From contig DASVDI010000005.1 in NCBI GenBank assembly GCA_036381175.1, positions 129-64,128 of the forward strand: a stretch of DNA of 64,000 nucleotides, in the 5' to 3' direction. This document shows, one piece after another, positions 4,465 to 63,894 of this stretch; position 1 is the stretch's first letter; the number at the start of each line of letters is the position of its first letter. Both the position numbers and the translations under genes were made by a program. This DNA comes from Gammaproteobacteria bacterium (GTDB lineage Bacteria; Pseudomonadota; Gammaproteobacteria; Natronospirales; JAJUFS01). The notes beneath the pieces are model-generated. The model made no database searches and was not told the DNA's origin. It saw nothing but the letters and a program-made list of their open reading frames with translations.

Positions 4465-5205
4465 TCAGTCGCCGCGATAAGCGGCGTTCAGCAGCGCGAA
4501 ACCATTCGTCGCCCGTTCCGCGGCATGGGTGTCAGCGGTGATCTTCGCGAGTGAACGCCGCAGGCGGTCAAGATTGCCCTGCCGCCACGCGGTGTCTTGC
4601 GGGCGCATCCGGCCGCGATCGAAATCGATGAGATAAACTTCCGGTTTTTCAGCGCCTGCGTCATCAATGAGAATATTGTGCGCGTTCAGATCGGCGTGCC
4701 AGACACCGGCATCGTGAAAACGCCGAATGCATTTTCCGACGGCGCGCCACGCAGCTTCCGTCATTTCGTCATCGAGCAACAGGCGCGCGAGTGATTCGCC
4801 GGGAACAGTTTCGGTAATGAGCGCGGCGTGATAACCCAGCCAGCCGCGCCGAATGCGCGCAGCGACAGGATGCGGCACCGGCAGGCCGAGGTCATACATG
4901 GCGGCGAGCAGGTTCCATTCACGCCACGGACGTGTTCGTTCAAGTCCCGTGAACAAATACCAGTCGCTGATGAATTTCCCGGGCAGTCCACCGCGGCGAT
5001 AAAAGCGCAGCACCCAGTCGATGCCCTCGTCCTGGATTCTCCACGCAGCACCGCGTCCTCCCAACGACTCATCGCCGAACGCGTCACGTGCGCGCCAGTA
5101 CGCAGGCGCAAAGACATGCTCGTGCACTTTGCCGGCAAGTTCAGCGTCGTATAGGATTAGTCCGCCCGTGACGGGCAGAACCTTCGGGCGGATTATAGCC
5201 TGCAT
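4465..5205 (-). CDS. kdkA: 3-deoxy-D-manno-octulosonic acid kinase
   Basis: VLRFYRRGG..WREWNLL..HADLNAHNILID..YLIDFDRG are typical KdkA kinase motifs. Start set at ATG 5205 (MQAIIRPK), not at the longer ORF start 5283. Confidence 0.85.
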   Translation of the reverse strand: MQAIIRPKVLPVTGGLILYDAELAGKVHEHVFAPAYWRARDAFGDESLGGRGAAWRIQDEGIDWVLRFYRRGGLPGKFISDWYLFTGLERTRPWREWNLLAAMYDLGLPVPHPVAARIRRGWLGYHAALITETVPGESLARLLLDDEMTEAAWRAVGKCIRRFHDAGVWHADLNAHNILIDDAGAEKPEVYLIDFDRGRMRPQDTAWRQGNLDRLRRSLAKITADTHAAERATNGFALLNAAYRGD

Positions 5206-6281: not shown

Positions 6282-8399
6282 TCAATCGACGCGCTGGTCC
6301 TGCATCAGATCAACTCGCGTATCCCGCCTTTCACCCGTACCACGCCGTTCGTGCGATTCGCGCAATTCGATTTCCCACAAGGCCGCATATTTATTGAACG
6401 TGTAGTTGGCATGCAGCGCGGCGAGAATGAAACCGCGATTGCCATCGAGGAAGCCGAGACGAATGAAATAATTGTGAATGAAGTTCAGCCAGCCACGCAG
6501 CGCGGCACTGAACAAGCCGGAACGCTTGCCGTTGCGGTAACGCTCGTTCGCCTGCAGCCACGCGTATTCGCCGAACTTCATCACCGCATGGTTATAGTCG
6601 CGGTACGTCTCGTGGTAGAGCGATCCGCGCAATCTTCCCAGCGTTCCCGATTTCAGTACGACTTTCTCATGCACGGGCACTTGCGTGAACGCGCCACTGC
6701 GACGCTCGAACAGGCGCAGTGGCGACTGGCCGCTGCCGCTGAAATCCATCACGCGGTTGAACAGCACGACCGGCCGGTGCACGTCGTAACCGGTGTGCGG
6801 CGGCCGGCCACGCAAGGTGTTGTCGATCTCCGCGCGCAGCTCGGGCGTCACGCGTTCGTCGGCATCGATGGACAACACCCACTCGCCTGTGGCGAGATCC
6901 AGCGCGCGCTGCTTCTGCTTGCCGAAGCCGGGCCAGTCCGTGACACGCACCTTGTCGGTGTATTCGCGCACGATCTCGACGGTTGCATCCGTGCTGCCGG
7001 AATCCAGCACGATGATTTCATCCGCCCAGCCGTGCACCGAGGCGAGACACGGCCGGATGCGATCGGCTTCGTTGAGCGTGATGATGATGACGCTCAGCGT
7101 CTTGTCGCGCGTGAAATCCTTCGTCAGGAACTGGCGCTCCTTCGCACGCACAAGGCCGTAGATCACCGCCAGGCAAAAGACGTAAAAAGTGATCGGCATG
7201 GTGCGATCGAAGATTGCTTCGGTGAGACCGAAATGCATGAAGCCGACAATCAGCACGATCCCCGCGTAGGACAATCCCCTGATGTCGCGATCGGAATGCC
7301 GCACGCCCCAGAGAAAATGCATGAGCGGAATCCCGAACACGAGCAGCAGCGCGAGGAGTCCTGCGAGACCGCGGTCCGCCAGCACTGACAAATATTCGTT
7401 GTGCGGATGATCGAACCGCAACAGGTACGGTTCCGCGAAGCCCGCCTCCACCCATTCGCGCAGCACGCTGGCGTAACCGCCGACCCCGACGCCGAACAGC
7501 GGATCACGCAGGAAGGCGTCGATCGCGATCGGCCACATGGCAAGCCGCAACCCGATCGAACCCGTTGTCTCCTCGCCGCGCAACACCAGCCGCAAGTCCT
7601 CGACGAGCATCGCGAGCCGCTCCGCCACGCCGGTCTGCGGAATGAAGTAGGCTGCTGCCGCGAGGATCACGAGGCCCGTGAACATCAGCCAGCGCACGCG
7701 GGCGTCGCGTCCCCGCGCCAGGTACCAGACCAGCAGCAGCGTCAGCGCCGGCATCGCGATCCACGCGCCGCGCGCGCCCGACAGGAACGTGGCGAGAAAG
7801 CCGAACAGGAATCCTGCCGCCGGCAGGGCCAGCAGCCACGGTGCGTGACGGCGAAAGAAACTCAAGCCACCAAGACTCATGAATGCCATCACCAGCGAAA
7901 GATCACCGAACAGCACAATGCTGCTGATTCCGCGCAGGTGCATTTCGAACAATGCCGGTTCGTCGCCGGTCAGCAAGGCGTACAGCGCGAACAGCCCGGC
8001 GGAAATACCGCCGAGTGCGAGACCGGTCCACCACACGCCTTCACCGTTGGGCATGCGCCGTACGACCAGGTAGATGGGAATCAGCAATAAAAAGCGCAGG
8101 TAGCGGCCAAGTTTCTTGAAGCCAAGATAATTGATCTCGCCGAGCAGGTACGCCAGCACCGCGATGGCGACGAAGAACGCCATGCTGAACAGCAGCAGCT
8201 TTTCGTCGCGCGACAGCGGCGTGCGCGGATCGCGGCCCGTCAGGCTGAACACCACGCCCAGCAGCGCGAGCAACAGCAGCGACACCGTCGCCGCCTGCTC
8301 GACCAGCAAGGTCGCCAGCGGGAACAGCAGCATCACGCCGCCGACCAGCCACGCGCGCACGCCGGTCAGAGCGTCACTGATGATGGGCCTTGACTGCAT
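6282..8399 (-). CDS. Fusion protein: N-terminal polytopic O-antigen ligase (WaaL/Wzy_C-like) domain plus C-terminal family 2 glycosyltransferase domain
   Basis: 705 aa. About 430 aa of TM helices include HPHNEYLSVLADRGLAGLL (the ligase-type loop/helix). This is followed by LSVIIITLNEADRI..IIVLDSGSTDATVEIV..SIDADE, the GT2 part. Confidence 0.75.
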   Translation of the reverse strand: MQSRPIISDALTGVRAWLVGGVMLLFPLATLLVEQAATVSLLLLALLGVVFSLTGRDPRTPLSRDEKLLLFSMAFFVAIAVLAYLLGEINYLGFKKLGRYLRFLLLIPIYLVVRRMPNGEGVWWTGLALGGISAGLFALYALLTGDEPALFEMHLRGISSIVLFGDLSLVMAFMSLGGLSFFRRHAPWLLALPAAGFLFGFLATFLSGARGAWIAMPALTLLLVWYLARGRDARVRWLMFTGLVILAAAAYFIPQTGVAERLAMLVEDLRLVLRGEETTGSIGLRLAMWPIAIDAFLRDPLFGVGVGGYASVLREWVEAGFAEPYLLRFDHPHNEYLSVLADRGLAGLLALLLVFGIPLMHFLWGVRHSDRDIRGLSYAGIVLIVGFMHFGLTEAIFDRTMPITFYVFCLAVIYGLVRAKERQFLTKDFTRDKTLSVIIITLNEADRIRPCLASVHGWADEIIVLDSGSTDATVEIVREYTDKVRVTDWPGFGKQKQRALDLATGEWVLSIDADERVTPELRAEIDNTLRGRPPHTGYDVHRPVVLFNRVMDFSGSGQSPLRLFERRSGAFTQVPVHEKVVLKSGTLGRLRGSLYHETYRDYNHAVMKFGEYAWLQANERYRNGKRSGLFSAALRGWLNFIHNYFIRLGFLDGNRGFILAALHANYTFNKYAALWEIELRESHERRGTGERRDTRVDLMQDQRVD

Positions 8400-53045: not shown

Positions 53046-53324
53046 ATGGACAAGGAAAATAACTACCGCGTCCCCGAAGGCTTCCATCCCTATATTTGCA
53101 TGGACACCATCCGCGGTCTCACGGACGCCATCCATCTCCACATGAACCAAGGCCCCGGCACGCAACTCAATCCCAGCCGCGCCGATCAAGGCGCGCTTGT
53201 CGCCCTCATCGACCAGCTACAGAAACACGTTCGCACGTTCCACGCCTGGCTCATCGAGATTGAAAACATCGGCAACGTCGAACTGCCGGTCACGAATTCG
53301 GATTTCGAATCCTTGTACAAGTAG
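53046..53324 (+). CDS. Small hypothetical protein (92 aa), divergent from the module-1 XRE gene
   Basis: AAGGAG RBS before the ATG. Its last 44 bp plus 7 bp of flank recur at 55828-55878. Confidence 0.55.
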   Translation: MDKENNYRVPEGFHPYICMDTIRGLTDAIHLHMNQGPGTQLNPSRADQGALVALIDQLQKHVRTFHAWLIEIENIGNVELPVTNSDFESLYK

Positions 53325-53404
53325 CAAAAAGCCCCATTTTTGCTTGGAAGCTGCTTACGCTCACCACGCATGTTTAAATAGCTGGTCAAACTCATTCATG
53401 GAAC

Positions 53405-53851
53405 ATGCGGATGAACAGATTTGGACAATGGTTAGCGAAGCTCGCTATTTCCACCCTATCTGCTTGCGTAATTGTTGCTCTCACCGCAGCGCTTCTGTAT
53501 TGGGTCCTTAGTCTTGCCGAAAGCCCGCCTAAAGATTGGGGCACCCTTATCGCACTCCTTCTTCTTTTGATGTTGTTCAACGCGATGTTTTTCGCAAGTT
53601 GGGCCGCGTTTGACGACTCGTTCAACACACGCTCACCCATCTGGACTCTGCGTGCCGCTGGAATCGCGCTCGCCGCTCAGGCCACGGTAACAATATGGGC
53701 GGGATGGAAAACGCATACTGTTGGGAGTTTTGGTTATGCCGCGCCCGCAGTATTCATCGTTGCAATGTCCGTATGTTTTTTTTCAGGCCTTATTACCTTC
53801 GTTATCGCACTCAATATCTTTCATCTGACGAAAGTAGATCGCGTCGAATAG
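53405..53851 (+). CDS. Hypothetical membrane protein (4 TM)
   Basis: Four hydrophobic helices. No family recognised. Confidence 0.5.
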   Translation: MRMNRFGQWLAKLAISTLSACVIVALTAALLYWVLSLAESPPKDWGTLIALLLLLMLFNAMFFASWAAFDDSFNTRSPIWTLRAAGIALAAQATVTIWAGWKTHTVGSFGYAAPAVFIVAMSVCFFSGLITFVIALNIFHLTKVDRVE

Positions 53852-54649
53852 ATACTTAAGCAACAGAAATTGGTCTCGTCTATTCACGTCGGCACCGTTT
53901 ACGCGCTCAGTGAGTTTCTTCGCATGTTGCTCGAAGTAACCTTGATTCGGATGCGAATAATCGGCGGCCAGGGCCGCGGCACGCGCTGCTGCCGACGCAG
54001 CGTCGCGCCACTGGTTCAAGGCAGCGTAACCATCTGCCAGGCTGTCCCACGCGTTGGGTGAACCCGGGTTCGCGTCCGCATTTCGCTTGAACAGCGCAAG
54101 CGCCTGTGCGTTCTTGCCGTTTTCCAACGCGAGGTAAGCAAGCTGGTTCAACGCGTCCTCGGGAATCGCAACGGTGCGTCCCAGCGTTTTCGATACCGCC
54201 TCGAAATGTCGCTCGACGCCCTCAAGTCCCTGATCCATCACCTCCGGCGACATCCGGTAGCCGGCGTAGAGCGCACGAAAGGCATCAACTTGCGCAACCA
54301 GTTGCAAGGTCATGTGCTGTTCGTCAGGAAAGTCCGCACTTTTCCAGCGGAATCCCGGCGGCGATTTCTCTTCCAGCGTCGCGACCAGTTGCCTGTGATT
54401 CGCCAGTGCCTGACCGCGATTATCGGATTGCGCCACGCACAAGAAGGCGGGGAGCTTTTCGCGTGCCTCGAATGATTTTTCCAGGGAGCGCTGTGGCAAT
54501 CGATCATCCCAATCCAGCGATGGCTCGAATGCAAAGTATGCGTGAAAGAGCGACGGTTCCGCCGTCAAGGTATAAAGGACGAATTGCCCGCCGCTTGAAT
54601 GTCCGGTAAGTATCCGCATGCCGTCAGTCCGGTACTGTTTCTCGATCAC
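53783..54649 (-). pseudogene. Alpha/beta-hydrolase (putative-esterase family) with a C-terminal TPR-like region; apparently 5'-truncated
   Basis: The nucleophile elbow GHSSGG lies only 16 codons after the first possible start (GTG 54649). The frame stays open upstream to an in-frame stop at 54824-54826 (..AKYFKQFLSDELIPVIEKQY) with no start codon in between. The 3' end overlaps the convergent gene by 69 bp. Confidence 0.55.
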
Positions 54650-55081
54650 CGGGATGAGTTCGTCGGAAAGAAACTGCTTGAAATACTTCGCGCCACCGCC
54701 GCAAAAAGCAGCAGAGCGAATCTGATGACCATGGTCCCCACCCTTGATTTCGATTGTTGCGCGTCTGCGCGCCGTGCTTACCCGACATAAGGCCGGGAAG
54801 CGTAAAGCACAAGGCGTCTGAGATCAGATTTACTTTCGCTTTTGAGGAACTGAACTGAACATCCGCATTCAGAAATGAGTTTTGAATGTCTGCATGCCAA
54901 GGCAGGATGTGACGAAGGAGATGATCGAGCGGTACCTCTAAATTCAGGGTTAGTTAAAGATTGATCAGGCTCTGGAATCCGACACCTGATTCGTCAGCGG
55001 ACCCTTTGAAGTATTCAATCGTGAGCTCGTCCAGCCGATATTCAACTTTCACGGCGTAACTACTCCGCATTCGATTGCGAA

Positions 55082-55411
55082 TCAAATTCGGCAATCGATG
55101 TTGATCTTCGGCTTGCGGCCCTTGCGCGCGGATTCGGACCTGGACACATTGATCCGCACGCTTCCCACACGACCGAGCAATTCAACGAGCTTGTCGAGCG
55201 AGAAGGTCGTGAGATCGCTGCTCATCAGGCGGCTGATTTTCGGCTGAGTGACGTGCAAGGTTTTTGCTGCTTGTGCCTGCGTCAGCCCTTCCCGCCGGAT
55301 ATATTCCTGCAGCGCGATCATGAAATCCGCGCGCAAACGGAGGTTGGTGGCTTCTTCGGCTTCGAAGCCGAGATCCGTGAATACATTTCTGCTGCTCTTG
55401 CTCATGTCCAC
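55082..55411 (-). CDS. XRE-family HTH antitoxin (HigA-like)
   Basis: NVFTDLGFEAEEATNLRLRADFMIALQEYIRREGLTQAQAAKTLHVTQPKISRLMS..FSLDKLVELL. It lies 4 nt downstream of the toxin gene. Confidence 0.8.
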   Translation of the reverse strand: MDMSKSSRNVFTDLGFEAEEATNLRLRADFMIALQEYIRREGLTQAQAAKTLHVTQPKISRLMSSDLTTFSLDKLVELLGRVGSVRINVSRSESARKGRKPKINIDCRI

Positions 55412-55415
55412 TACC

Positions 55416-55751
55416 TCAATGTGCTCGCCGCCGGATCAGACCAAGCCGTTGCCTGGCGAGTCGGATATCCGCGACCGCTGTTCGCTGCGTCTTTTTTCTG
55501 AACGCGTGCAACACGTGAATTCGATCGGTTCGTGCCGTTACGTAGATGACGCGAAATGCGCCGTCAATACTGATGCGCACCTCACGGACCCGAGGCCCAA
55601 TACTTTTCATGGGCTTCCAGCTCGTCGGCGCAAGCCCTTGCTGCAGGCGCCGCAGTTCCGTGCCGACCGCTCGACGTACACGCAAAGGAAACGCCTTTAC
55701 GCTGTCCAGCGAATCTCCGTGCCAGATGATGTCCTTTTCCAATGAACACAT
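55416..55751 (-). CDS. RelE/HigB-superfamily toxin (phage Gp49-like)
   Basis: IIWHGDSLDSVKAFP..GTELRRLQQG..WKPMKSIGPRVREVRI..FRVIYV..IHVLHAFRKKTQRT. The start is uncertain (ATG 55751 or TTG 55766). Confidence 0.75.
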   Translation of the reverse strand: MCSLEKDIIWHGDSLDSVKAFPLRVRRAVGTELRRLQQGLAPTSWKPMKSIGPRVREVRISIDGAFRVIYVTARTDRIHVLHAFRKKTQRTAVADIRLARQRLGLIRRRAH

Positions 55752-55777
55752 TCCTTGTGAGTCCAAGCTTCGTCAAT

Positions 55778-55793
55778 ATACCTTATTTGGTAT
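55778..55793. promoter_or_regulatory. Palindrome upstream of the toxin-antitoxin operon (candidate operator)
   Basis: ATACCTTATTTGGTAT, read directly from the sequence. Confidence 0.35.
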
Positions 55794-55827
55794 AGCTTGT
55801 CCTCCGGCGAAAACATCCGCACCGCCT

Positions 55828-55878
55828 AACTGCCGGTCACGAATTCGGAATTCGAATCCTTGTACAAGTAGCAAAAAG
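55828..55878. repeat. 51-bp duplicate (1 mismatch) of 53281-53331, i.e. an orphan copy of the 3' end of the 92-aa gene
   Basis: AACTGCCGGTCACGAATTCGGA[A/T]TTCGAATCCTTGTACAAGTAGCAAAAAG. The two copies were aligned by eye. Confidence 0.85.
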
Positions 55879-57848: not shown

Positions 57849-57957
57849 CGGTAGAACATTCTCGACGCTGTCTTGAGATCCAGAGATCTGCCAAGCGCAA
57901 GACGCGATCCTAAATGTTCCTGAGGGGATGATTGTTTGATGAGGGAGGATTGAGAAT

Positions 57958-57984
57958 GGCGGCCAGAGGCCGCCTTTGGTGTTT
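57958..57984 (+). terminator. Rho-independent terminator
   Basis: GGCGGCCAGAGGCCGCC followed by TTTGGTGTTT. Confidence 0.65.
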
Positions 57985-58048
57985 CAATGTGAGATGAGCG
58001 CCTTAGGGCTGCAGGAAGTATTAAAGGTAGCAAAACGGGAATATACAC

Positions 58049-58485
58049 ATGCGCCTGATCCACTACATTATTTTTTTTTGACCTTGTTCATTTGCGTACC
58101 AGTGCACGCGAACGATGGTTCTTCACACACCCCCGAAGTGGCTAACGATTTGTATTACTGCGGAATAATTTCTGAGTTTTACGGAACGGTAAGCGACGAG
58201 CAGTTGTCCTCCCAATGGCAGGCCAGCAAAGACTCTTTTTTCCGTCTTGCGCACCTCCTGAGCGACCATCCGGACAGCCTTCTTACGAATGCAGTAGTGG
58301 ACCGGTTTCGCGATTTTGTGAACCGTCTCGATCAAGAAGAGATGGACGACCGTGCCATTAAGAACGAACTATCCGTGCAGTACGCGAGATGCGTAAAGCT
58401 CGTAGACGCTCTCCACGGCGAATTTCGGGAACGGGTCTTTCAGGCGGAAAGAACTATTCTGGAGCTTGCGCAAACAACGCGATAG
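58049..58485 (+). pseudogene. Exported hypothetical protein gene whose ATG and n-region are out of frame with the body at a T9 tract (58071-58079)
   Basis: ATG 58049 reads MRLIHYIIFF then TGA. One extra T would give MRLIHYIIFFLTLFICVPVHA|NDG.., continuous with track ORF 57976..58485. Confidence 0.55.
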
Positions 58486-58515
58486 CCGCGGCTCTCGGCA
58501 CAATGCCGCGCCACT

Positions 58516-58627
58516 GGTACCTGGAGATCAAAGACGCCCTCACCCGCTGCGCAGAGCTTTACTCGGCGGCGCTAGCCAGATGGATGTCGGCACACGTAGA
58601 TGAATGTTTGATGAGGGAGGAATGAAA
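58516..58627. repeat. About 112-bp orphan copy of the 3' end of the 59696..59947 gene (the intact copy spans 59838-59949)
   Basis: GGTACCTGGAGATCAAAGACGCCCTCACCCGC..GATGAATGTTTGATGAGGGAGGAATGA versus GGTACCTGGAAATCAACGGCGCCCTCACCCGC..GATGAATGCTTGATGAGGGAGGAATGA. Confidence 0.8.
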
Positions 58628-58760
58628 AATGCGGCCGGAAGTGGCACTTGATGCTGTTATTCAACGGGAAGCCTCTTGCCCCTGCTGTTAACCTCGACAG
58701 CGTTTAGGGTCAAGTCTTGTGCTTTGAATTTCAATGCCATGCAAAGCGCAAGACTTGACC

Positions 58761-59333
58761 CTATGACTTCAGTAAAGCAGCAGCGGCGAGTAACGAGTCG
58801 TAGACCGCGACCAGTTTTCCAGCGTCGCTATCTGGATCAGGGCTCCAGGTCCTCGCACCACCATCAAACCCTCTTTCTATGCAGATAGCCGAAAAATGGT
58901 ACGCCTCGCCATCCAGTCCCATGCTCGAATGGTCAAAGCTTGCTTCCGCCATCGCGCTACAGGTGTATCTCTCAAGGTCCTTGTAGAAGGAATAAGAAAC
59001 ATCAACGTCAACAGAACTGGCAGTTGGATGAATACCTTCTTGATATGTACCGTCGCTGAACGACTCCCACACTTGCGCATCCAGCGTCGCCACGCGAAGG
59101 ATCGCTCGTTCTCTGTCGGCCAACACCGTTACCGCGTACTCCTTCTGGAACGAAGGTAGCGCCATCATCTGCAGCCTCGGCGCTCCTTGAATCGCGGGCT
59201 GAAAAGTTTTCAGTAATGCAATTCGATAGTCGGCAAGGAACAGATCGTATGGAGATCGATCGGGAACCAATCCGCCTGCGTGAAGCGGGGACATACCTAT
59301 CACCACTAGCACTATGAGAATTAGGCGCGTCAT
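58761..59333 (-). CDS. Exported hypothetical protein (module 2 cargo)
   Basis: ATG 59333 gives MTRLILIVLVVIGMSPLHAGG, a signal peptide. ATGA overlap with the XRE gene stop. The longer track ORF, running to 59627, overlaps the XRE gene. Confidence 0.6.
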   Translation of the reverse strand: MTRLILIVLVVIGMSPLHAGGLVPDRSPYDLFLADYRIALLKTFQPAIQGAPRLQMMALPSFQKEYAVTVLADRERAILRVATLDAQVWESFSDGTYQEGIHPTASSVDVDVSYSFYKDLERYTCSAMAEASFDHSSMGLDGEAYHFSAICIERGFDGGARTWSPDPDSDAGKLVAVYDSLLAAAALLKS

Positions 59334-59593
59334 AGACCTGCCGCCTTGAAAAGTTCCGCTGCCGAAATCTTCAGCGCTTTGCAAAGCTTCGCGATGTTCT
59401 TGAGTGCGAGGTTGCGTTCGCCGCGTTCGACGCCGCCGACGTAAGCCACATGGAGTCCGGCGAGATGCGCAAGGTCTTCCTGCGAGAGGTCGAGTTTTTT
59501 GCGGCGGGCCTGAATGGCGTGGCCGAGGGCTTCGAATACGGCCTGATCCTGCGGATCGATCTTTGCCTTGGCCTTGGTCTTTTTCTTCTTCAT
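59330..59593 (-). CDS. XRE-family HTH regulator (controller-protein-like), module 2
   Basis: LSQEDLAHLAGLHVAYVGGVERGERNLALKNIAKLCKALKISAAELFKAAGL. It is clearly paralogous to the module-1 regulator. Confidence 0.85.
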   Translation of the reverse strand: MKKKKTKAKAKIDPQDQAVFEALGHAIQARRKKLDLSQEDLAHLAGLHVAYVGGVERGERNLALKNIAKLCKALKISAAELFKAAGL

Positions 59594-59628
59594 GGGCAGT
59601 AATTTGCCCCTGCCCCGCTTGATTCAAC

Positions 59629-59646
59629 CAATACTTATGAGTATTG
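59629..59646. promoter_or_regulatory. Palindrome in the divergent promoter region of module 2 (candidate operator); a further half-site AGTATTG lies at 59665-59671
   Basis: CAATACTTATGAGTATTG, read directly from the sequence. Confidence 0.35.
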
Positions 59647-59695
59647 TAAAGATAACTACTTAAAAGTATTGACGAAATTTCTGGAGGAGAACGTC

Positions 59696-59947
59696 ATGGA
59701 AGACATCCGCAAGCTGCTGAGCGACCACGATGCCGAGATCGCGCCGGAATCACTGGCCTACATATTACGTGGGCTGAACGCGGCGATCGCCGACCAGCTC
59801 GCCGACTGCCAGCCGGACGATCCGGCAGAACGCCGCCGGTACCTGGAAATCAACGGCGCCCTCACCCGCAGCGCTGAACTGTACTCCGCGGCGCTAGCTC
59901 GATGGATATCGGGGCACGTGGATGAATGCTTGATGAGGGAGGAATGA
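59696..59947 (+). CDS. Small helical hypothetical protein (83 aa), divergent from the module-2 XRE gene
   Basis: GGAGGAG RBS before ATG 59696. The C-terminus ..AELYSAALARWISGHVDECLMREE recurs as orphan fragments upstream. Confidence 0.6.
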   Translation: MEDIRKLLSDHDAEIAPESLAYILRGLNAAIADQLADCQPDDPAERRRYLEINGALTRSAELYSAALARWISGHVDECLMREE

Positions 59948-60783
59948 GAAAGGTGGTCAAACCTTCCGTCGATGCTGTAGTGCGAAGAATTATCGGCTCG
60001 ATGCCGAAATGTGAGACCGAGATCCGCAGAACTCGAGTACCGAACACGGTGAGAGTGGCAACCACGGCTGATTGCGGCCAGAATACCGCGCCATCTACTT
60101 TATCCATTTACTCCATGACACGATTTTCTACAGAGTCAGACTTGGTGCTGCTAGCCGCGGACCTACTGGTACGTCCACCGGGGTCAAGACTTCCATTCCT
60201 TGTATATCGAGAAGTGCCAACTCCCAACGGCTCAACAGACTTGGCTGCCGCTCGTTTTCGAAAAGACTTGAACGCTAACTTGGCAGCGCTTCCTGCTCGC
60301 TGGGCCTACGCGGCCTCGTCGATCCCTGTTCGAAAAACGTTTTCTATCGCTTGGTTTGCAAATATTGCTGGGACGAGTCGATCACGCGCATCCGCCGTGA
60401 TCACTACCCTAGTTGATTGCGGATTAGTCCAACCTTTCGAGTTAAATGGCACAACATCGTTCGTGAAAATAGAACCGATTCGACTTCCCGCAACACGAAT
60501 CTTCGCATTCGAAGCGAAGTTGAGAGATTGGAGAAAGGCATTAAGGCAAGCGCACAATAATCTTCGATATGCCGACAAGTCGTGGGTGATCATGGACGAG
60601 TCGCATTCGGGGCCAGCTTTGAAAAACAAGAAACTATTCCGACAAGAGAAAGTCGGTCTCATCACCGTTTCTACGGATGGAAGAATGAAAGAAGAGGTGC
60701 GCGCCATCACGACAGGTCTAATGAATCCTTGGCACCGATGGGAAGTTGCGTGGCGGCTTTGGCAAACCTATATTAGCCCATAA
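59944..60783 (+). CDS. Hypothetical protein with a PD-(D/E)xK-nuclease-like motif pair and an inserted wHTH-like segment
   Basis: ATG 59944 overlaps the upstream TGA (ATGA) behind a GGGAGG RBS. Candidate motifs are NGSTDLAAARF (D) and RIFAFEAKLRDWRKALRQA (ExK). An alternative start is ATG 60115. Confidence 0.5.
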   Translation: MRKVVKPSVDAVVRRIIGSMPKCETEIRRTRVPNTVRVATTADCGQNTAPSTLSIYSMTRFSTESDLVLLAADLLVRPPGSRLPFLVYREVPTPNGSTDLAAARFRKDLNANLAALPARWAYAASSIPVRKTFSIAWFANIAGTSRSRASAVITTLVDCGLVQPFELNGTTSFVKIEPIRLPATRIFAFEAKLRDWRKALRQAHNNLRYADKSWVIMDESHSGPALKNKKLFRQEKVGLITVSTDGRMKEEVRAITTGLMNPWHRWEVAWRLWQTYISP

Positions 60784-61945
60784 ACTCTAGCGCCTCCTTC
60801 CAAGCTTGCAGATGCGCGTCAGAGCCAGGCGCATCTAACCTGATTTTTTTTGCATCCAATTTCGAATAAGCCACCCGAGCCTTTTCAACCATCTCACCAA
60901 GCCTTTCGATCTTTTCACCCTTGCCCAATTCTTGGAGCTCCTGCAACTGGCGAAAAAAAACGATGAAATAGTGTTTATAAAGCATGGGTTGATTAAACGT
61001 GGGTTCAACCATTGCATCAAGAGCTTGATTTCCGTATTCCGTCTCAACGTATATGTCTTTCCAAAGGCCTGGAAGCTGCTTTGAAATTTCTTTCGCACTA
61101 TCGAGTCGTATCCAATTCAACAAACCAGGAACGTAGAGCCTCGCCTTCGGCCCCCGCCTTTCCTCCGCTAACGATAGGAACTTGTCCACCGAGAAAATTC
61201 GAGTATTCTCAAAAGCTCCAGTTGCAATTCCTCGAGGCTCAAGCACGGAATATAACAACGCCTCGGTATTTAAGTAGCCCAATACTAATTCGAGATCCGC
61301 ACCTTTGATCTCTTCGCAAAATCTATAGAAATTAATGATGTCGGTTCCAGATGTAATCTGTTTTAGGTCGCGCTTTATATCTGGTATCAAATAGATACCG
61401 TCAATTTCTTCATAGCTTGTTACCCAATTCAATAAATACTCGCGATATTTTTGCGACTCGAGCATCGACGAAGTCACCACCAATGTCAGAAACACCGGAA
61501 CGTCCACACCGATGGAGTTTATGGCAGCTAGAAACGGCTTTACTGTAAAGGCATCCAGTCGGTCGGTTAGATCAGGCCAAAGTTGATCATGATAGCGAAC
61601 AGGAATGACGATGCCCTCGAAACCCTTGTCCACTTGAAATTGGACACAACGTTTCGCGCATTCCATAGCAACGGCTGAAAAACTCGTTGTATCAAATCCC
61701 CCGCCGCCTGAGATCGTCTCCGGGAAAAAATCATAGGAGTGCAATTTCTTCTTTGAAGACCTCGGCAAATAGAACTGCGGGTCAAAGTAGGATTTCGTTA
61801 ATAGTTCAGCTGGAAGTTTTTCGACCTGATGTAAAGCGTAGTGAACCGGGCTGAGGATAAGACCATCGCCACTCTTGTCGTCCTGAATAGACTCTTTGTT
61901 CCAGTTTGTATAGTGACCACACTGGTGCAGGATCTTATAAGACAT
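60773..61945 (-). CDS. Hypothetical protein orf390 (alternating beta/alpha pattern, possibly TIM-barrel-like), last gene of the kinase operon
   Basis: The ATG lies 1 nt after the kinase TAA. Candidate strands: GLILSP, SYFDPQFY, GIVIPVRY, VFLTLVV, GIYLIPD, ELVLGYL, GIATGAF, RLYVPGL. No family recognised. Confidence 0.6.
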   Translation of the reverse strand: MSYKILHQCGHYTNWNKESIQDDKSGDGLILSPVHYALHQVEKLPAELLTKSYFDPQFYLPRSSKKKLHSYDFFPETISGGGGFDTTSFSAVAMECAKRCVQFQVDKGFEGIVIPVRYHDQLWPDLTDRLDAFTVKPFLAAINSIGVDVPVFLTLVVTSSMLESQKYREYLLNWVTSYEEIDGIYLIPDIKRDLKQITSGTDIINFYRFCEEIKGADLELVLGYLNTEALLYSVLEPRGIATGAFENTRIFSVDKFLSLAEERRGPKARLYVPGLLNWIRLDSAKEISKQLPGLWKDIYVETEYGNQALDAMVEPTFNQPMLYKHYFIVFFRQLQELQELGKGEKIERLGEMVEKARVAYSKLDAKKIRLDAPGSDAHLQAWKEALEFMG

Positions 61946-61946
61946 C

Positions 61947-62933
61947 TTATTTCAGCTCCTTCCGAAGAGTAGCAATAGAATCGCGCAGATCATTGCGGCG
62001 CCGGACGCGTCGAAATGGTTGCTTCTCTAGCATTCTGTGGATCAACTGCGACAGGTCATTGGATATTCCAAATGTTTCTTCAAGATTTGGAAGATCTTCA
62101 TTTGTAACAGCGACCAGCTTGTCGTCAATGCTCTTCTTGCCGGTTACGAACGGATTACTTCCCGAAAGCATTTCGTATGCAATTATGCCGATACAGAATT
62201 GATCACTCTTATGCGTAATGTTTGCCTTATCATTCGTTGCCTGTTCCGGACTGCAGTATCCGGGCGTACACGGACCCCAAGGAGAGAATGTCGCTGTCTT
62301 TCCTTTTTCACCTTCGAGGCGAACAATCCCAAGATCAATAATCGCCACGCCACCATCGTCTCGGATCAGTATATTCGGCGGCTTAAGGTCTCTGTGGACA
62401 AGACCCTTGCCCCACAACACCTCCATGGCTTCCACCACGTCGGCCATGAAGTCAATCACCTTGGCTTCAGTGTCGAACTCTTTTAAGCATTCCGACAGCG
62501 GCCTCGACGGAATTTTTTCCTCGATCGTAACTAAGTATCGAATCGGTAGCGTTTCGCCGGTTTCGGGATGCTCATGGAATATTCTCGCAAAATACAGAGT
62601 TGGAAACGCTGTTGAATCGATTGATGCAAGGAAGCCAATTTCGCGCTCAAGATAAGAAAGAGATGCCGCATCGATGTCCGCACTTATTTTCAGCACGACC
62701 TCGCCAGCAGGTATTGCAAGGAAGTCGTTTAGCGCTTCTAGGGTGTCGAGGTCTTCGTCACCCTCCGCAGATTCCTCCTCCTCATCCGTTTCCGTGGCTG
62801 GCTTCTCCGCTGGTTGGTAGTTGCAGAAGTAAACAACACGTTGACCAGATGCAGAAGCGACTTCTTCTATTGCAACGCCCGGTACAAATGCTGCTGCGAG
62901 CTCACGAAGCGCGTTGCTGTCTGTTAATGGCAC
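61947..62933 (-). CDS. Hanks-type Ser/Thr protein kinase (atypical N-lobe with an acidic insert)
   Basis: Motifs: GLVHRDLKPPNILI (catalytic loop), IIDLGIVRL (DFG-equivalent), GYCSPEQ (APE-equivalent) and VVLKISAD (candidate VAIK Lys). Start set at GTG 62933 (AAGGA RBS) because the track ORF start at 63044 runs into the tRNA-like gene. Confidence 0.75.
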   Translation of the reverse strand: MPLTDSNALRELAAAFVPGVAIEEVASASGQRVVYFCNYQPAEKPATETDEEEESAEGDEDLDTLEALNDFLAIPAGEVVLKISADIDAASLSYLEREIGFLASIDSTAFPTLYFARIFHEHPETGETLPIRYLVTIEEKIPSRPLSECLKEFDTEAKVIDFMADVVEAMEVLWGKGLVHRDLKPPNILIRDDGGVAIIDLGIVRLEGEKGKTATFSPWGPCTPGYCSPEQATNDKANITHKSDQFCIGIIAYEMLSGSNPFVTGKKSIDDKLVAVTNEDLPNLEETFGISNDLSQLIHRMLEKQPFRRVRRRNDLRDSIATLRKELK

Positions 62934-62969
62934 GGTCAGTTCCTTGTTCGGTTCTTTATCAGCCGGAAA

Positions 62970-63084
62970 TGGGAACGGTGGCGGGACTTGAACCCGCATC
63001 CTCCTTGCCCATATCCTTATTTCCGTGACGAAATTGAAGGACATGTAGAAGACAAGGTGCTCTATCCGATTGAGCTACACCGCC
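62970..63084 (-). tRNA. tRNA-Arg(UCU)-like gene carrying a 36-nt self-complementary insertion at anticodon-loop position 37/38; function unknown
   Basis: Folded by hand on the minus strand.
- Acceptor stem: GGCGGTG / CACCGTT
- U8
- D arm: GCTC-AATCGGATA-GAGC (G18 G19 A20)
- Anticodon stem: CCTTGT / GCAAGG
- Anticodon loop: CTTCTA + [CATGTCCTTCAATTTCGTCACGGAAATAAGGATATG] + G
- Variable loop: AGGAT
- T arm: GCGGG-TTCAAGT-CCCGC
- Discriminator C and an encoded CCA. Confidence 0.6.
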
Positions 63085-63085
63085 G

Positions 63086-63646
63086 TCAACTCACTGCAAC
63101 TCGCTGCACGTCTTTGGCCCCGATCTCGATCGCTCTCTGTATCAGAGCGACATACTTCTTGCTCTGGAACCCTGGACGACCTTCCGATTTCAGTCTTTCG
63201 ATCACAAGATACGGGTTGAGCAACAGGACATAATTAAACTCGCCCGAAGCCCCCTCCGTCGCCTTGATGAAGCCCAACACGACCAACTGGCGCATTCTTT
63301 CTATCCATGTGCGTTCAGCACGCTGTCCTGCAAAACCTGATTCAAAGGCCAACTCTCTTGGGTTGGTGATCGTAATAAACCCTTCGTCCCAAACTCGGCA
63401 CCACAGGGAGAGATAACACCGAGAGACGGGCTTGCCATTCGTCAGGTCATCCATGATTTCCATCATCAATGGCAGCGTTCGAGGGAGCGTTGTGTATCCA
63501 TCAGATACCTTCCTGTTCCACAGGGCCTCGGCAGTCACTTCAGGCCAAAGTGACGCCCGAAGTTCCAGTCTTTTTTGAGTCATTTTTGCGCTGCGGCTGG
63601 CCTTCATACTCTTCTTCAACTCCGAAATTCTTGTCACCCGAGACAA
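63086..63646 (-). CDS. Hypothetical protein orf186, first gene of the kinase operon
   Basis: The stop TGA at 63088-63086 lies 1 nt before the tRNA-like 5' end at 63084. The start is uncertain (TTG 63646, ATG 63607 or ATG 63583). It contains 6 AGA codons. No family recognised. Confidence 0.55.
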   Translation of the reverse strand: MSRVTRISELKKSMKASRSAKMTQKRLELRASLWPEVTAEALWNRKVSDGYTTLPRTLPLMMEIMDDLTNGKPVSRCYLSLWCRVWDEGFITITNPRELAFESGFAGQRAERTWIERMRQLVVLGFIKATEGASGEFNYVLLLNPYLVIERLKSEGRPGFQSKKYVALIQRAIEIGAKDVQRVAVS

Positions 63647-63837
63647 TGTCTATTATTGCAATTTTTCTTTATAAATCAACGGCTTATGTGTGTCGGCCTG
63701 CGCGTCGTATTCGCAAAAACACCCCACTCAACATGCTGGGCACGCCCCAATCGTGACTCCAACATAGTGAGTACGACATTTTTGTGCAAAAAAAAACGCG
63801 TAATTCATTGTTTATCAAAGGAAATAAAAAATAACCG

Positions 63838-63894
63838 TAGTGCTCCTAGTGCTCTGTGTGCTACCTGTGCTCTGATAGTGCTCCCAGTGCTCCG
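63838..63894. repeat. Iteron-like array: six GTGCT(C) cores spaced 9-9-9-11-9 bp, next to an AT-rich tract
   Basis: TAGTGCTCC TAGTGCTCT GTGTGCTAC CTGTGCTCT GATAGTGCTCC CAGTGCTCC. The core Gs are at 63840, 63849, 63858, 63867, 63878 and 63887. AT-rich DNA spans about 63780-63835. Confidence 0.75.

What the first reader, a model, noticed from the sequence alone, without database searches (positions are those of the whole stretch)
62970..63084. tRNA-Arg(UCU)-like gene with a 36-nt hairpin inserted exactly at position 37/38
The cloverleaf core is canonical:
- U8, A14, G18 G19, A21, a 5-nt variable loop, the T-loop TTCAAGT, and an encoded CCA.
- It carries the arginine identity features I know of: A20 in the D-loop (GGATAGAGC) and C35 in a CUUCUA loop.

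The anticodon loop, however, is split after A37 by CATGTCCTTCAATTTCGTCACGGAAATAAGGATATG. That insert folds on itself as a 9-bp helix (CATGTCCTT/AAGGATATG, with one G-U pair) plus a 5-bp helix (ATTTC/GAAAT).

Removing the insert restores a 7-nt loop, CUUCUAG, on a 6-bp stem. As written, the gene gives a tRNA body with a rod of about 21 bp instead of an anticodon loop.

Bacterial tRNA introns known to me are group I introns of at least about 200 nt, not 36-nt hairpins at the archaeal/eukaryal 37/38 position.

The acceptor stem also has G1-U72 and G2-U71 wobble pairs. orf186 next door uses six AGA codons, so an island-borne tRNA-Arg(UCU) would make sense in a high-G+C host.

Alternative explanations:
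- a tRNA inactivated by insertion of a small palindromic element
- a spliced or processed tRNA
- a tRNA-mimic ncRNA.
Basis: seen in the sequence. Interest (0 to 1): 0.75.

Follow-up and report, generated by a model that had tools for sequence, protein, structure and literature searches.

The report
Hairpin-interrupted tRNA-Arg mimic on mobile elements
This is a real tRNA-arginine-shaped RNA gene whose anticodon loop is replaced by a conserved hairpin; it belongs to an apparently undescribed family found on plasmids and genomic islands of Proteobacteria, usually right behind a small DNA-binding protein gene, and it looks built to imitate a tRNA rather than to read codons.

Summary
On the minus strand, 63084..62970 encodes a full tRNA cloverleaf (Rfam tRNA 48.1 bits) with a 36-nt hairpin after position 37. 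Removing the hairpin gives tRNA-Arg(UCU) with a 6-bp anticodon stem.

It is not a dead tRNA or a repeat-element insertion. About 45 distinct relatives were found in Alpha-, Gamma- and Deltaproteobacteria, on plasmids, islands and transposon cargo. All carry a 25-44 nt hairpin at the same position. The hairpin sequence varies, but its basal helix covaries at all 7 pairs.

In about two thirds of loci the gene starts 1-30 nt after the stop codon of a small winged-helix gene. No uninterrupted tRNA-Arg occupies that position in any of 58 loci. Here the upstream gene is orf186.

The arginyl-tRNA synthetase (ArgRS) identity set and usually CCA are kept: A20, C35 and U36 or G36. Features needed for decoding drift: position 33 varies, the anticodon stem has 6 bp in about half the members, and pair 1:72 is often mismatched. 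There is no bulge-helix-bulge (BHB) motif and no group I intron core.

Best reading (confidence 0.5): a co-transcribed, non-decoding tRNA-Arg mimic. A spliced rare-codon tRNA is not excluded (0.2). The trans function is unknown.

The parts
62970..63084 (-). tRNA-Arg-like RNA gene, 115 nt including the encoded CCA (62972-62970).
   Evidence: Rfam tRNA 48.1 bits. Cloverleaf minimum-free-energy fold with z = -3.9. The family alignment A4 has 93.5% of cells paired, against 37-54% when the 3' partners are slid.
63010..63045 (-). 36-nt structured insert between positions 37 and 38: a 9-bp helix, a 2-nt bulge, a 5-bp helix and a 6-nt loop.
   Evidence: Unique in the window and folds as described. In the family, the first 7 pairs counted from the junction are paired in 93, 89, 82, 84, 71, 67 and 76% of 45 members. 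All 7 show changes on both sides.
63046..63050 (-). 5-nt bulge U33-U34-C35-U36-A37. The anticodon-equivalent UCU lies at 63049-63047 and is displayed on a continuous rod of about 21 bp.
   Evidence: Minimum-free-energy structure. Members found without using the anticodon in the search keep U34-C35-(U/G)36.
63086..63646 (-). orf186, a small winged-helix protein gene whose stop codon ends 1 nt before the tRNA-like 5' end.
   Evidence: - ORF listed.
- AlphaFold2 model with pLDDT 89 and a helix-turn-helix plus beta-wing.
- Foldseek top hits are all winged-helix proteins (MarR, TrmBL2, TFE-alpha), but weak, E 0.05-0.3.
- 115 homologues, none with a Pfam domain.
- Profile-profile match to the HTH_36/DnaD_N-type family A2: probability 26%, E 7e-4.
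63838..63892 (.). Array of 9-bp-spaced GAGCAC (plus strand GTGCTC) repeats upstream of orf186, next to an A/T-rich stretch. Likely the binding sites of orf186.
   Evidence: Repeats found. The same type of array lies upstream of the closest orf186 homologue with genomic context (L101 2932-2981).
63652..63679 (-). Promoter-like site (TTGATT-16-TG-AATAAT) just upstream of the orf186 start. It is the only candidate promoter for orf186 plus the tRNA-like gene.
   Evidence: This is a consensus match only and is not enriched over shuffles. There is no promoter-like site between orf186 and the tRNA-like gene, and no terminator-like site after it on this strand.
61947..62933 (-). Ser/Thr protein kinase gene. 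Its GTG start, preceded by AAGGA, lies 37 nt after the tRNA-like 3' end on the same strand.
   Evidence: Pfam Pkinase E 4e-27. PADLOC PD-T4-6 E 3.5e-32. Start codon read from the sequence.
60773..61945 (-). orf390, function unknown. It abuts the kinase stop codon, so it is probably in the same operon.
   Evidence: ORF listed. No match in Pfam, PADLOC or PDB sequences.

Best explanation
The gene is one member of a conserved, apparently undescribed family of tRNA-Arg-derived RNA genes. The family is carried by plasmids, transposon cargo and genomic islands of Proteobacteria.

**Shown**
- It folds as a complete tRNA body: acceptor, D and T arms, a 5-nt variable loop, and usually an encoded CCA.
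- The anticodon loop is replaced by a long rod. The anticodon stem continues directly into a 25-44 nt hairpin, leaving U33-U34-C35-U/G36-A37 as a one-sided bulge.
- The hairpin's sequence is free but its helix covaries, so the structure itself is under selection.
- The gene sits inside an mRNA. It typically starts 1-30 nt after the stop codon of a small winged-helix gene.
- In this window it lies between orf186 and a PD-T4-6-like kinase gene.

**Inferred**
1. It is transcribed with orf186 from the promoter upstream of that gene.
2. It is cut out by RNase P and 3'-end processing like any tRNA.
3. It is still recognised, and possibly charged, by ArgRS, because A20, C35 and U/G36 are all preserved.
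4. It cannot work as a decoder on the ribosome. It therefore acts as a tRNA-Arg mimic serving the mobile element.

The most likely role is as a decoy, sensor or effector for factors that read the tRNA-Arg anticodon arm. It may also set the 3' end of the winged-helix mRNA. The actual trans target is unknown.
For: **Family and structure**
- Blastn and pattern scans found insert-bearing relatives on 3+ plasmids, in about 20 genomes or MAGs and in about 25 metagenome contigs.
- In alignment A4 (25 sequences), 20 of 29 pairs show compensatory changes. 93.5% of cells are paired and 0 of 500 shuffles reach this. All 7 basal pairs of the insert helix covary.
- The inserts fold better than shuffles, mean z -1.96.

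**Coupling to a winged-helix gene**
- 33 loci have an A2-family ORF (HTH_36/DnaD_N/RepC-N-like) ending 3-32 nt upstream of the tRNA-like start, or overlapping it by 2 nt.
- The window and L101 have an orf186-family gene in the same place.
- Among 16 plasmid HTH contexts sampled without regard to RNA, 3 have the tRNA-like gene.
- No uninterrupted tRNA-Arg lies next to an HTH gene in any of 58 loci.

**Arg identity kept while decoding features drift**
- Members found independently of the anticodon have UCU (L110, L119, L129) or UCG (L101, L130). All have G18 G19 A20.
- Position 33 is G in L129 and C in L101.
- Position 37 is not A in 6 of 40 members.
- The anticodon stem has an extra base pair in 21 of 40 members.
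- Pair 1:72 is mismatched in 7 of 25 members.

**It inserts as a unit into transcripts**
- In three Rhodobacteraceae it lies in the nrdJ 5' UTR. Close relatives (94% identical flanking DUF1489 protein) have no tRNA there.

**Transcription context**
- There is no promoter-like or terminator-like signal between orf186, the tRNA-like gene and the kinase gene.
Against: - No expression, processing or charging data exist for any member.
- The pattern used for the large scans required YTTCT and GGAYA. Conservation of the anticodon and A20 across the 40 pattern-derived members is therefore partly by construction. Only 5 independently found members test it.
- The rare-codon argument favours a real tRNA. 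Island genes use AGR for 25-39% of Arg codons, against 2-5% in host genes.
- About a quarter of members would give a perfectly canonical tRNA once the insert is removed (5-bp stem and 7-nt loop).
- No conserved partner enzyme or target was found. The only conserved neighbour is the winged-helix gene.
- orf186's homology to the A2 family is only suggestive.
- Most orf186 homologues (9 of 10 contexts) have no tRNA-like gene.
- The decoy/sensor role is an inference with no direct support.
Confidence: 0.5

Rival explanations
1. It is a true intron-containing tRNA-Arg(UCU). The hairpin is cut out at 37/38 by an unknown bacterial pathway, for example a structure-specific endonuclease plus an RtcB-type ligase. 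The mature tRNA then supplies AGA/AGG decoding (CGA/CGG in the UCG members) to A+T-richer mobile-element genes in a G+C-rich host.
For: - With the insert removed, ARAGORN calls tRNA-Arg(tct).
- A20, C35 and U/G36 are conserved and CCA is encoded.
- Both anticodons seen in the family, UCU and UCG, are arginine anticodons.
- Island genes use AGA/AGG for 25-39% of Arg codons against 2-5% in host genes, and CGA is also enriched.
- The position is the canonical archaeal/eukaryal intron site.
- Free sequence with a conserved helix is what is expected of an intron recognised by shape.
Against: - There is no BHB motif. The 3' strand of the insert helix abuts the anticodon stem with no unpaired nucleotide.
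- No splicing endonuclease or ligase gene lies in the neighbourhood.
- About half of the members would mature with a 6-bp anticodon stem.
- U33 is replaced in 2 of the 5 independently found members, and 1:72 is mismatched in 28%.
- No insert-free allele lies next to any HTH gene in 58 loci, unlike the usual presence/absence polymorphism of introns.
- No literature was found on such a pathway in bacteria.
Confidence: 0.2
2. It is a purely cis-acting tRNA-like punctuation element. RNase P and 3' processing at the tRNA shape set the 3' end of the winged-helix mRNA and the 5' end of downstream mRNAs (kinase here, nrdJ in Rhodobacteraceae). This tunes their stability. The released RNA has no function of its own.
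For: - It always lies inside transcripts at ORF boundaries: 1-30 nt after a stop codon, intercistronic in the window, and in the nrdJ 5' UTR in L005, L017 and L053.
- It has no promoter or terminator of its own here.
- Only 4 of 40 members are followed by a terminator-like hairpin.
- There is precedent for tRNA-like 3'-end processing of a longer transcript: mascRNA from MALAT1 (abstract of 10.64898/2026.01.19.700226).
Against: - A processing signal needs only the acceptor/T minihelix. That does not explain the conserved D-arm with A20, the Arg anticodon nucleotides or the covarying hairpin.
- It does not explain why an ordinary tRNA never fills the slot.
Confidence: 0.15
3. The feature acts at the DNA level: an attachment site for an integrase or transposon, or a single-strand initiation or origin structure linked to a replication-initiator-like winged-helix protein.
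For: - The A2 family resembles the N-terminal DNA-binding domain of replication initiators: RepC, lambda O-like and DnaD_N.
- Iteron-like repeats and an A/T-rich tract lie upstream of orf186.
- tRNA genes are classical integration sites (general knowledge).
- orf186 homologues lie in Tn7-like cargo.
Against: - Covariation preserves the whole tRNA cloverleaf, and the tertiary-interaction nucleotides G18, G19 and T54-C56 are invariant. That points to an RNA recognised as a tRNA.
- There is no repeat of the tRNA 3' end and no integrase nearby in the window.
- The HTH gene is not the replicase on pRm1132f, a rolling-circle plasmid with its own Rep (PMC10194956). Nor is it on a ColE1-type E. coli plasmid that has RNAI.
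Confidence: 0.05
4. It is a dead tRNA gene inactivated by insertion of a small palindromic repeat element (REP or miniature inverted-repeat element, MITE).
For: The insert is a near-palindrome, and default tRNA finders reject the gene.
Against: - The insert is single-copy in the window.
- Inserts in relatives share position and structure but not sequence.
- Both the tRNA body and the insert helix show compensatory substitutions across classes of Proteobacteria.
Confidence: 0.03

Closest known systems
Archaeal/eukaryal pre-tRNA introns at position 37/38, including Nanoarchaeum split tRNAs (general knowledge)
   Same: The insertion point is exactly after nucleotide 37. It is short (25-44 nt). 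Sequence is free but a helix starts at the junction. The archaeal tRNA-Arg(UCU) intron genes picked up by the same pattern scan (Halolamina, DPANN archaea) have a similar overall length.
   Different: There is no bulge-helix-bulge: the bulge is 5 nt on the 5' strand and there is none on the 3' strand. The hosts are Proteobacteria, in which no splicing endonuclease is known. Nucleotide 38 is G, not A. An extra anticodon-stem pair is common. The gene is coupled to a winged-helix gene on mobile elements.
Bacterial group I introns in tRNA genes, such as tRNA-Leu(UAA) of cyanobacteria, tRNA-Arg(CCU) of Agrobacterium and tRNA-Ile of Azoarcus (general knowledge)
   Same: A bacterial tRNA gene interrupted in the anticodon loop, including an Arg tRNA in Alphaproteobacteria.
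   Different: Those introns are about 200 nt or longer, self-splicing, and have a P1-P9 core. Here there is a single hairpin of 25-44 nt. No Rfam intron family matches even at E <= 5.
tRNA-like non-coding RNAs and tRNA mimics: mascRNA from the MALAT1 3' end, bacterial YrlA, the tmRNA tRNA-like domain and plant-virus 3' tRNA-like structures (general knowledge; mascRNA abstract 10.64898/2026.01.19.700226)
   Same: A tRNA-shaped module embedded in or at the end of a longer transcript. It is expected to be recognised by tRNA-processing enzymes, has an altered anticodon arm, and is probably not a decoder.
   Different: This RNA keeps a complete, high-scoring tRNA body with a specific (Arg) identity set and the anticodon nucleotides. 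The alteration is a covarying hairpin at 37/38. No Rfam family other than generic tRNA matches.
Intervening sequences of bacterial 23S/16S rRNA, which are hairpin expansions removed by RNase III without religation (general knowledge)
   Same: A hairpin extension replaces a loop in a stable RNA of Proteobacteria. It is variable in sequence and constant in position.
   Different: The host molecule is a tRNA-like RNA. Cutting without ligation would leave two halves. RNase III processing was not tested here.
Rare-codon tRNA genes carried by phages, plasmids and islands (general knowledge)
   Same: A mobile element in a G+C-rich host carries a tRNA-Arg(UCU)-type gene, while its own genes are rich in AGA/AGG.
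   Different: Those tRNAs are uninterrupted and canonical. This one is interrupted in every member, and many members have non-canonical stem length, position 33 or 1:72 pair.

Membership tests
Canonical bacterial elongator tRNA-Arg(UCU) | Cloverleaf scoring above the Rfam tRNA gathering threshold. | tested here: met
   RF00005 scores 48.1 bits against a gathering score of 29. Relatives score 39-52 bits.
Canonical bacterial elongator tRNA-Arg(UCU) | 7-nt anticodon loop on a 5-bp stem, as encoded. | tested here: not met
   There are 45 nt (9 loop positions plus the 36-nt insert) between the 5-bp stem strands; Rfam's alignment shows 44 of them as an insertion. After deleting the insert the stem is 6 bp. 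21 of 40 relatives also have the extra pair. ARAGORN in default mode finds no tRNA.
Canonical bacterial elongator tRNA-Arg(UCU) | ArgRS identity set (A20, C35, U36 or G36) and a 3' CCA. | tested here: met
   The window has G18 G19 A20, U34 C35 U36 and an encoded CCA. The 5 members found independently of the anticodon have UCU or UCG plus A20. The identity rules themselves come from general knowledge of E. coli ArgRS.
Canonical bacterial elongator tRNA-Arg(UCU) | Universal U33 and a paired 1:72, needed for decoding and EF-Tu binding. | tested here: inconclusive
   The window has U33 and G1.U72. In the family, position 33 is G (L129) or C (L101), and 1:72 is unpaired in 7 of 25 members.
Archaeal/eukaryal-type (BHB) tRNA intron | Located between nucleotides 37 and 38. 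| tested here: met
   The insert starts after A37 in the window and at the equivalent position in all relatives.
Archaeal/eukaryal-type (BHB) tRNA intron | Bulge-helix-bulge: two 3-nt bulges on opposite strands separated by 4 bp. | tested here: not met
   There is one 5-nt bulge on the 5' strand only. The 3' strands of the insert helix and the anticodon stem are contiguous: columns 85 and 86 of A4.
Archaeal/eukaryal-type (BHB) tRNA intron | A splicing endonuclease and an RNA ligase available in the host. | not testable with these tools
   Only a 64-kb contig of the MAG is available. None of the neighbouring genes matches such enzymes.
Group I intron in a tRNA gene | About 200 nt or more, with a conserved catalytic core detectable by Rfam. 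| tested here: not met
   The insert is 36 nt. No other Rfam family matches 62850-63200 at E <= 5.
REP/MITE insertion | Multiple near-identical copies scattered in the genome. | tested here: not met
   One copy in 64 kb with up to 3 mismatches allowed. Inserts of relatives are not similar in sequence. The rest of the host genome could not be searched.
Described tRNA-like RNA families (tmRNA, YrlA/Y RNA, mascRNA and others in Rfam 15) | A match to the family's covariance model. | tested here: not met
   Only RF00005 matches, at both the gathering and the E-value thresholds.
Winged-helix plus tRNA-like module defined here | A small winged-helix ORF on the same strand ending no more than about 30 nt before the tRNA-like 5' end. 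| tested here: met
   The orf186 stop codon ends at 63086 and the tRNA-like gene starts at 63084. orf186 is modelled as a winged helix. Its homology to the commoner A2 family is only suggestive: hhalign probability 26%, E 7e-4.

The most novel reading that the evidence does not exclude
Two readings remain open.

(a) Proteobacterial mobile elements carry a new class of protein-dependent tRNA intron at the archaeal/eukaryal 37/38 position. That would imply an unrecognised bacterial tRNA splicing pathway.

(b) The RNA is an arginylatable but non-decoding tRNA mimic. It occupies the effector ('toxin') slot of a two-gene winged-helix module, in place of Abi, HEPN, RelE or DUF3800 proteins. That would make it an RNA effector or sensor of a defence or addiction system acting through the tRNA-Arg machinery.
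Probability: 0.25. Interest if true: 0.9.

Novelty: new variant of a known kind. Interest (0 to 1): 0.7.

Why it matters
**Invisible to standard annotation.** Default tRNA finders skip these genes, and Rfam sees only a generic tRNA with a large insertion. The family is therefore missed even though it recurs on plasmids (including the published rolling-circle plasmid pRm1132f), Tn7-like cargo and islands across Proteobacteria.

**If the hairpin is spliced out.** Bacteria would have a tRNA intron type and a splicing route that are not known today.

**If it is not spliced.** Mobile elements would be deploying a shape-conserved tRNA-Arg mimic that keeps synthetase identity but not decoding geometry. 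That would be a new kind of tRNA mimicry, next to genes typical of defence and addiction modules.

**Testable.** Either outcome can be checked with simple experiments on cultivable hosts such as Sinorhizobium, Spongiibacter, Methylocaldum and Caulobacter.

Tried and rejected
- **Antisense control.** RNAduplex of each insert against the 750 nt upstream (HTH gene plus leader) is no better than shuffles: mean z +0.34 over 35 loci. Rejected.
- **Housekeeping tRNA in Rhodobacteraceae.**
  - The hisS-hisZ-hisG-DUF1489 context of L005, L017 and L053 at first looked like the chromosomal tRNA-Arg locus.
  - Five related genomes have no tRNA between DUF1489 and nrdJ.
  - It is therefore an insertion into the nrdJ leader.
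- **The HTH gene as the plasmid replicase, with the RNA as primer or origin.**
  - The A2 family resembles replication-initiator N-terminal domains.
  - It also occurs on a ColE1-type plasmid with RNAI and on the rolling-circle plasmid pRm1132f, which has its own Rep (PMC10194956).
  - It is mostly followed by protein genes: Abi, RelE/ParE, DUF3800.
  - Not supported as a general explanation.
- **Island att site.** There is no repeat of the tRNA 3' end in the window.
- **orf186 family always paired with the RNA.** Only 1 of 10 homologue contexts has it.
- **Searches that found nothing.**
  - Phage GenBank records.
  - E. coli genomes.
  - PDB sequence searches for orf186 and orf390.
  - The search for related loci with A2 or a single HTH protein on viral contigs.
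  - The pRm1132f paper is not held.
  - Five literature searches on related terms (tRNA introns, tRNA-like RNAs, plasmid replication) returned nothing on this class.
Full report
**1. The observation**

The feature is on the minus strand.
- Rfam's tRNA model matches 63084..62973 at 48.1 bits (gathering score 29). It covers the whole model with a 44-nt insertion in the anticodon loop.
- No other RNA family matches, even at E <= 5.
- Read 5'->3', the RNA has a 7-bp acceptor stem with G1.U72 and G2.U71, then U8, the D arm GCUC/GAGC, and the D-loop AAUCGGAUA (G18 G19 A20).
- It also has a 5-nt variable loop, the T arm GCGGG-UUCAAGU-CCCGC, discriminator C and an encoded CCA.
- The 36-nt insert (63045..63010) follows A37 and is unique in the window.
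- The predicted fold is the cloverleaf with a long anticodon arm:
  - a 7-bp stem, including a U.G pair and C32-G38;
  - a one-sided 5-nt bulge UUCUA;
  - then a 9-bp helix, a 2-nt bulge and a 5-bp helix;
  - energy -43.6 kcal/mol, z = -3.9.
- ARAGORN finds nothing by default.
- With the insert deleted, ARAGORN calls tRNA-Arg(tct) with a 6-bp anticodon stem.

**2. It is one member of a family**

- Blastn against plasmids found the same architecture, at 72-77% identity over the whole length including an insert of similar size. The plasmids are from Spongiibacter, Methylocaldum and Methylobacter, the last with two tandem copies.
- A pattern built from the conserved body, allowing any 40-65 nt between the anticodon and the T arm, was scanned over three collections:
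  - one genome per species;
  - IMG/VR viral contigs;
  - JGI metagenomes.
- Two kinds of hit were removed: tandem ordinary tRNAs, and genuine archaeal intron-containing tRNA-Arg genes (Halolamina, DPANN archaea).
- That left 40 distinct bacterial sequences from Alpha-, Gamma- and Deltaproteobacteria.
- Five more were found by gene context or blastn, without using the anticodon: L101, L110, L119, L129 and L130.
- All have a hairpin of 25-44 nt (median about 32) immediately after position 37, followed by a single G and the 3' strand of the anticodon stem.

**3. The structure is selected, including the insert**

- The nucleotides at the two ends of the insert pair with each other in 93, 89, 82, 84, 71, 67 and 76% of 45 members (positions 1-7 from the junction). 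With the partner slid by one position, pairing at the same seven positions is 7-42%.
- Pair types alternate. Position 1, for example, has CG 30, GC 5, UA 4 and AU 3.
- On a 25-sequence MAFFT alignment (A4), RNAalifold recovers the cloverleaf plus a 7-bp basal insert helix.
- 93.5% of cells are standard pairs, against 37-54% for slid partners. 20 of 29 pairs have double changes, including all 7 in the insert helix. 0 of 500 shuffles reach any of the measures.
- Inserts fold better than their shuffles, mean z -1.96.
- The insert sequence is otherwise unconserved, apart from a frequent CAUR...YAUG base.

A dead tRNA hit by a repeat element is therefore excluded.

**4. Genomic setting**

- In 33 loci an ORF of 125-225 aa on the same strand ends 3-32 nt before the tRNA-like 5' end, or overlaps it by 2 nt. 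These ORFs form one family, A2.
- A2 hits Pfam HTH_36, DnaD_N and RP-C. It also hits PHROG replication-initiator N-terminal families and NCBIfam RepC, all weakly. This indicates a winged-helix DNA-binding domain.
- It is the only conserved neighbour.
- In the window the corresponding gene is orf186, whose stop codon ends 1 nt before the tRNA-like gene.
  - It has 115 homologues with no Pfam domain.
  - A confident AlphaFold2 model (pLDDT 89) shows a winged helix. Its best, though weak, Foldseek hits are all winged-helix regulators.
  - A profile-profile alignment to A2 gives probability 26%, E 7e-4, over the W-x-G-[FWY]-T-x-[IL]-P motif and the recognition helix. Homology is plausible but not shown.
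- Upstream of orf186 lie an A/T-rich tract and a run of 9-bp-spaced GAGCAC repeats (63838-63892). The same arrangement precedes its closest homologue with known context, L101.
- L101 is also the only one of 10 orf186-homologue contexts that carries a tRNA-like gene.

The coupling is asymmetric. The winged-helix genes are much more common than the RNA.
- A2 homologues occur on about 300 plasmids.
- In 16 contexts sampled without regard to RNA, 3 have the tRNA-like gene: pRm1132f and plasmids of Methylosinus and Caulobacter.
- The others have a protein gene there or nothing. The protein genes are an Abi family protein, RelE/ParE, DUF3800 (twice) and a HEPN/Abi_2-like protein.
- In no case, over 58 loci, is an ordinary uninterrupted tRNA found in that position.
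- The HTH gene is not the plasmid replicase in at least two cases. One is a ColE1-type plasmid with RNAI. The other is pRm1132f, which replicates by a rolling circle (PMC10194956) and has its own Rep_1-like gene.

A separate small group shows that the RNA can move as a unit.
- In three Rhodobacteraceae it lies between the NrdR-box promoter and the ribosome-binding site of nrdJ.
- Five related genomes have no tRNA there, including one whose flanking DUF1489 protein is 94% identical.

In the window the gene is intercistronic.
- A promoter-like site precedes orf186.
- Nothing promoter- or terminator-like separates orf186, the tRNA-like gene and the next gene.
- That next gene is a Ser/Thr kinase resembling the PD-T4-6 defence kinases. 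It starts 37 nt downstream and is followed by orf390, of unknown function.
- The whole 51-64 kb end of this Gammaproteobacteria MAG contig has lower G+C.

**5. What is conserved and what is not**

*Kept:*
- all tertiary-interaction nucleotides (G18, G19, T54-C56, G53-C61);
- the D arm typical of tRNA-Arg with A20;
- U34-C35-(U or G)36;
- mostly A37;
- usually an encoded CCA.

The large scans required YTTCT and GGAYA, so only the five independently found members test the anticodon. Three have UCU and two have UCG. Both are arginine anticodons, and both satisfy the C35 plus U/G36 rule for ArgRS (general knowledge).

*Not kept:*
- Position 33 is G in L129 and C in L101.
- The anticodon stem has one extra pair in 21 of 40 members and ambiguously in 8 more.
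- Pair 1:72 is mismatched in 7 of 25 members.
- The discriminator base varies.

This pattern fits recognition by tRNA-processing enzymes and ArgRS better than it fits ribosomal decoding.

**6. Mechanism**

*Shown:*
- a structured, selected, tRNA-Arg-shaped RNA gene embedded in mobile-element transcripts;
- an anticodon triplet presented as a bulge on a rod of about 21 bp.

*Inferred:*
- co-transcription with orf186;
- release by RNase P and 3' processing;
- binding, and possibly charging, by ArgRS;
- no decoding.

I therefore favour a non-decoding tRNA-Arg mimic (confidence 0.5). Its trans role could be a decoy or sensor for factors that read the tRNA-Arg anticodon arm. It could also be an RNA occupant of the effector slot of the winged-helix two-gene module. 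This role is speculative.

Processing so close to the stop codon would also define the 3' end of the winged-helix mRNA. A purely cis role is the second rival (0.15).

The main rival (0.2) is a genuine intron.
- Island genes do use AGA/AGG for 25-39% of Arg codons, against 2-5% in host genes.
- About a quarter of members would be canonical after excision.
- Against it: no bulge-helix-bulge, no splicing enzymes nearby, the non-canonical features above, and the absence of insert-free alleles.

DNA-level roles (0.05) and a pseudogene (0.03) are unlikely. Antisense pairing of the insert with the upstream gene or leader was tested and rejected.

**7. Comparison with what is known, and novelty**

The closest known things are:
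- archaeal/eukaryal 37/38 introns (same position, but the BHB test fails);
- bacterial group I tRNA introns (size and core tests fail);
- tRNA-like non-coding RNAs such as mascRNA, YrlA and tmRNA (no model match);
- rRNA intervening sequences (analogy only);
- rare-codon tRNAs of mobile elements, which are uninterrupted.

Rfam 15 has no separate family for this RNA, and five literature searches found no description of it. One more, for pRm1132f itself, found papers that cite the plasmid but none that mentions a tRNA on it. Absence from these sources is not proof of novelty.

I rate it a new variant of a known kind (tRNA-derived structured RNA). There is a 0.25 chance that it is something categorically new: a bacterial tRNA splicing system or an RNA effector of a defence or addiction module.

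Interest: 0.7.

Noticed in passing
L049 (Chitinophagaceae MAG) around 7616 on the minus strand; L061 and L062 (IMG/VR viral contigs): A second, different class of short (26-27 nt) inserts after position 37 of tRNA-Arg(UCU) genes. The 3' end of the insert is complementary to the anticodon loop itself (CUUCUUCG/CGAAGAAG; CUUCUUAUG/CAUAAGAAG), so the anticodon would be buried in a helix.
   Followed up: no
L012 1808-1913 (Ignavibacteriaceae MAG) and L063 609-714 (viral contig): A tRNA-Arg-like gene with an insert of about 60 nt that contains a second copy of the anticodon-arm sequence CCTTCTAAG. ARAGORN also reports another intron-type tRNA at L012 2988-3102.
   Followed up: no
window 63838-63892; L101 2932-2981: Arrays of 9-bp-spaced GAGCAC/AGCAC repeats, with an A/T-rich tract, about 200 nt upstream of orf186-family genes. 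They are probably operator or iteron sites of this uncharacterised winged-helix family.
   Followed up: partly
window 60773-62933, minus strand: A PD-T4-6-like Ser/Thr kinase gene followed, stop abutting start, by orf390. orf390 has no match in Pfam, PADLOC or PDB sequences. The pair may be an uncharacterised two-gene defence candidate.
   Followed up: partly
window 57927-59975 and 53262-55878: Repeats of 55-126 nt ending in a GGGAGG ribosome-binding site lie in front of three ORFs of the island. There is also a 70-nt repeat (93% identical) at 53262 and 55809.
   Followed up: no
L101, L102, L103, L107, L110-L113 (contexts of orf186 homologues): orf186-family genes lie in Tn7-like cargo (TniQ, TnsD, TnsC and TnsB-type genes). 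They also sit next to Abi_2, Abi_C, HipA, AIPR, NERD-kinase and AbiEii genes, and on a small ParA plasmid that separately carries an A2-HTH plus tRNA-like module.
   Followed up: partly
L115 (Vibrio vulnificus plasmid p93U204) 911-1129 and 3665-3883: Two PAGEV RNAs (RF03037, about 120 bits) on a 5.7-kb plasmid. Its only non-toxin-antitoxin gene is an A2-type HTH protein.
   Followed up: no
L003 (Methylobacter plasmid) 4877-4986, 4995-5101 and 6991-7123: Two tandem insert-bearing tRNA-like genes lie after one HTH gene. A group II intron D1-D4 match lies 2 kb downstream.
   Followed up: no
L005, L017 and L053 (Rhodobacteraceae), nrdJ leader: The insert-bearing tRNA-like gene replaces the normal leader of about 54 nt between the NrdR boxes and the nrdJ start codon. 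Related genomes lack it. This implies an effect on ribonucleotide reductase expression.
   Followed up: partly
L101 4766-4838: An ordinary-looking tRNA with anticodon loop CUUAUAA (Ile-UAU type, 57.6 bits) lies at the edge of a Tn7-like element's cargo. It may be that element's attachment site.
   Followed up: no
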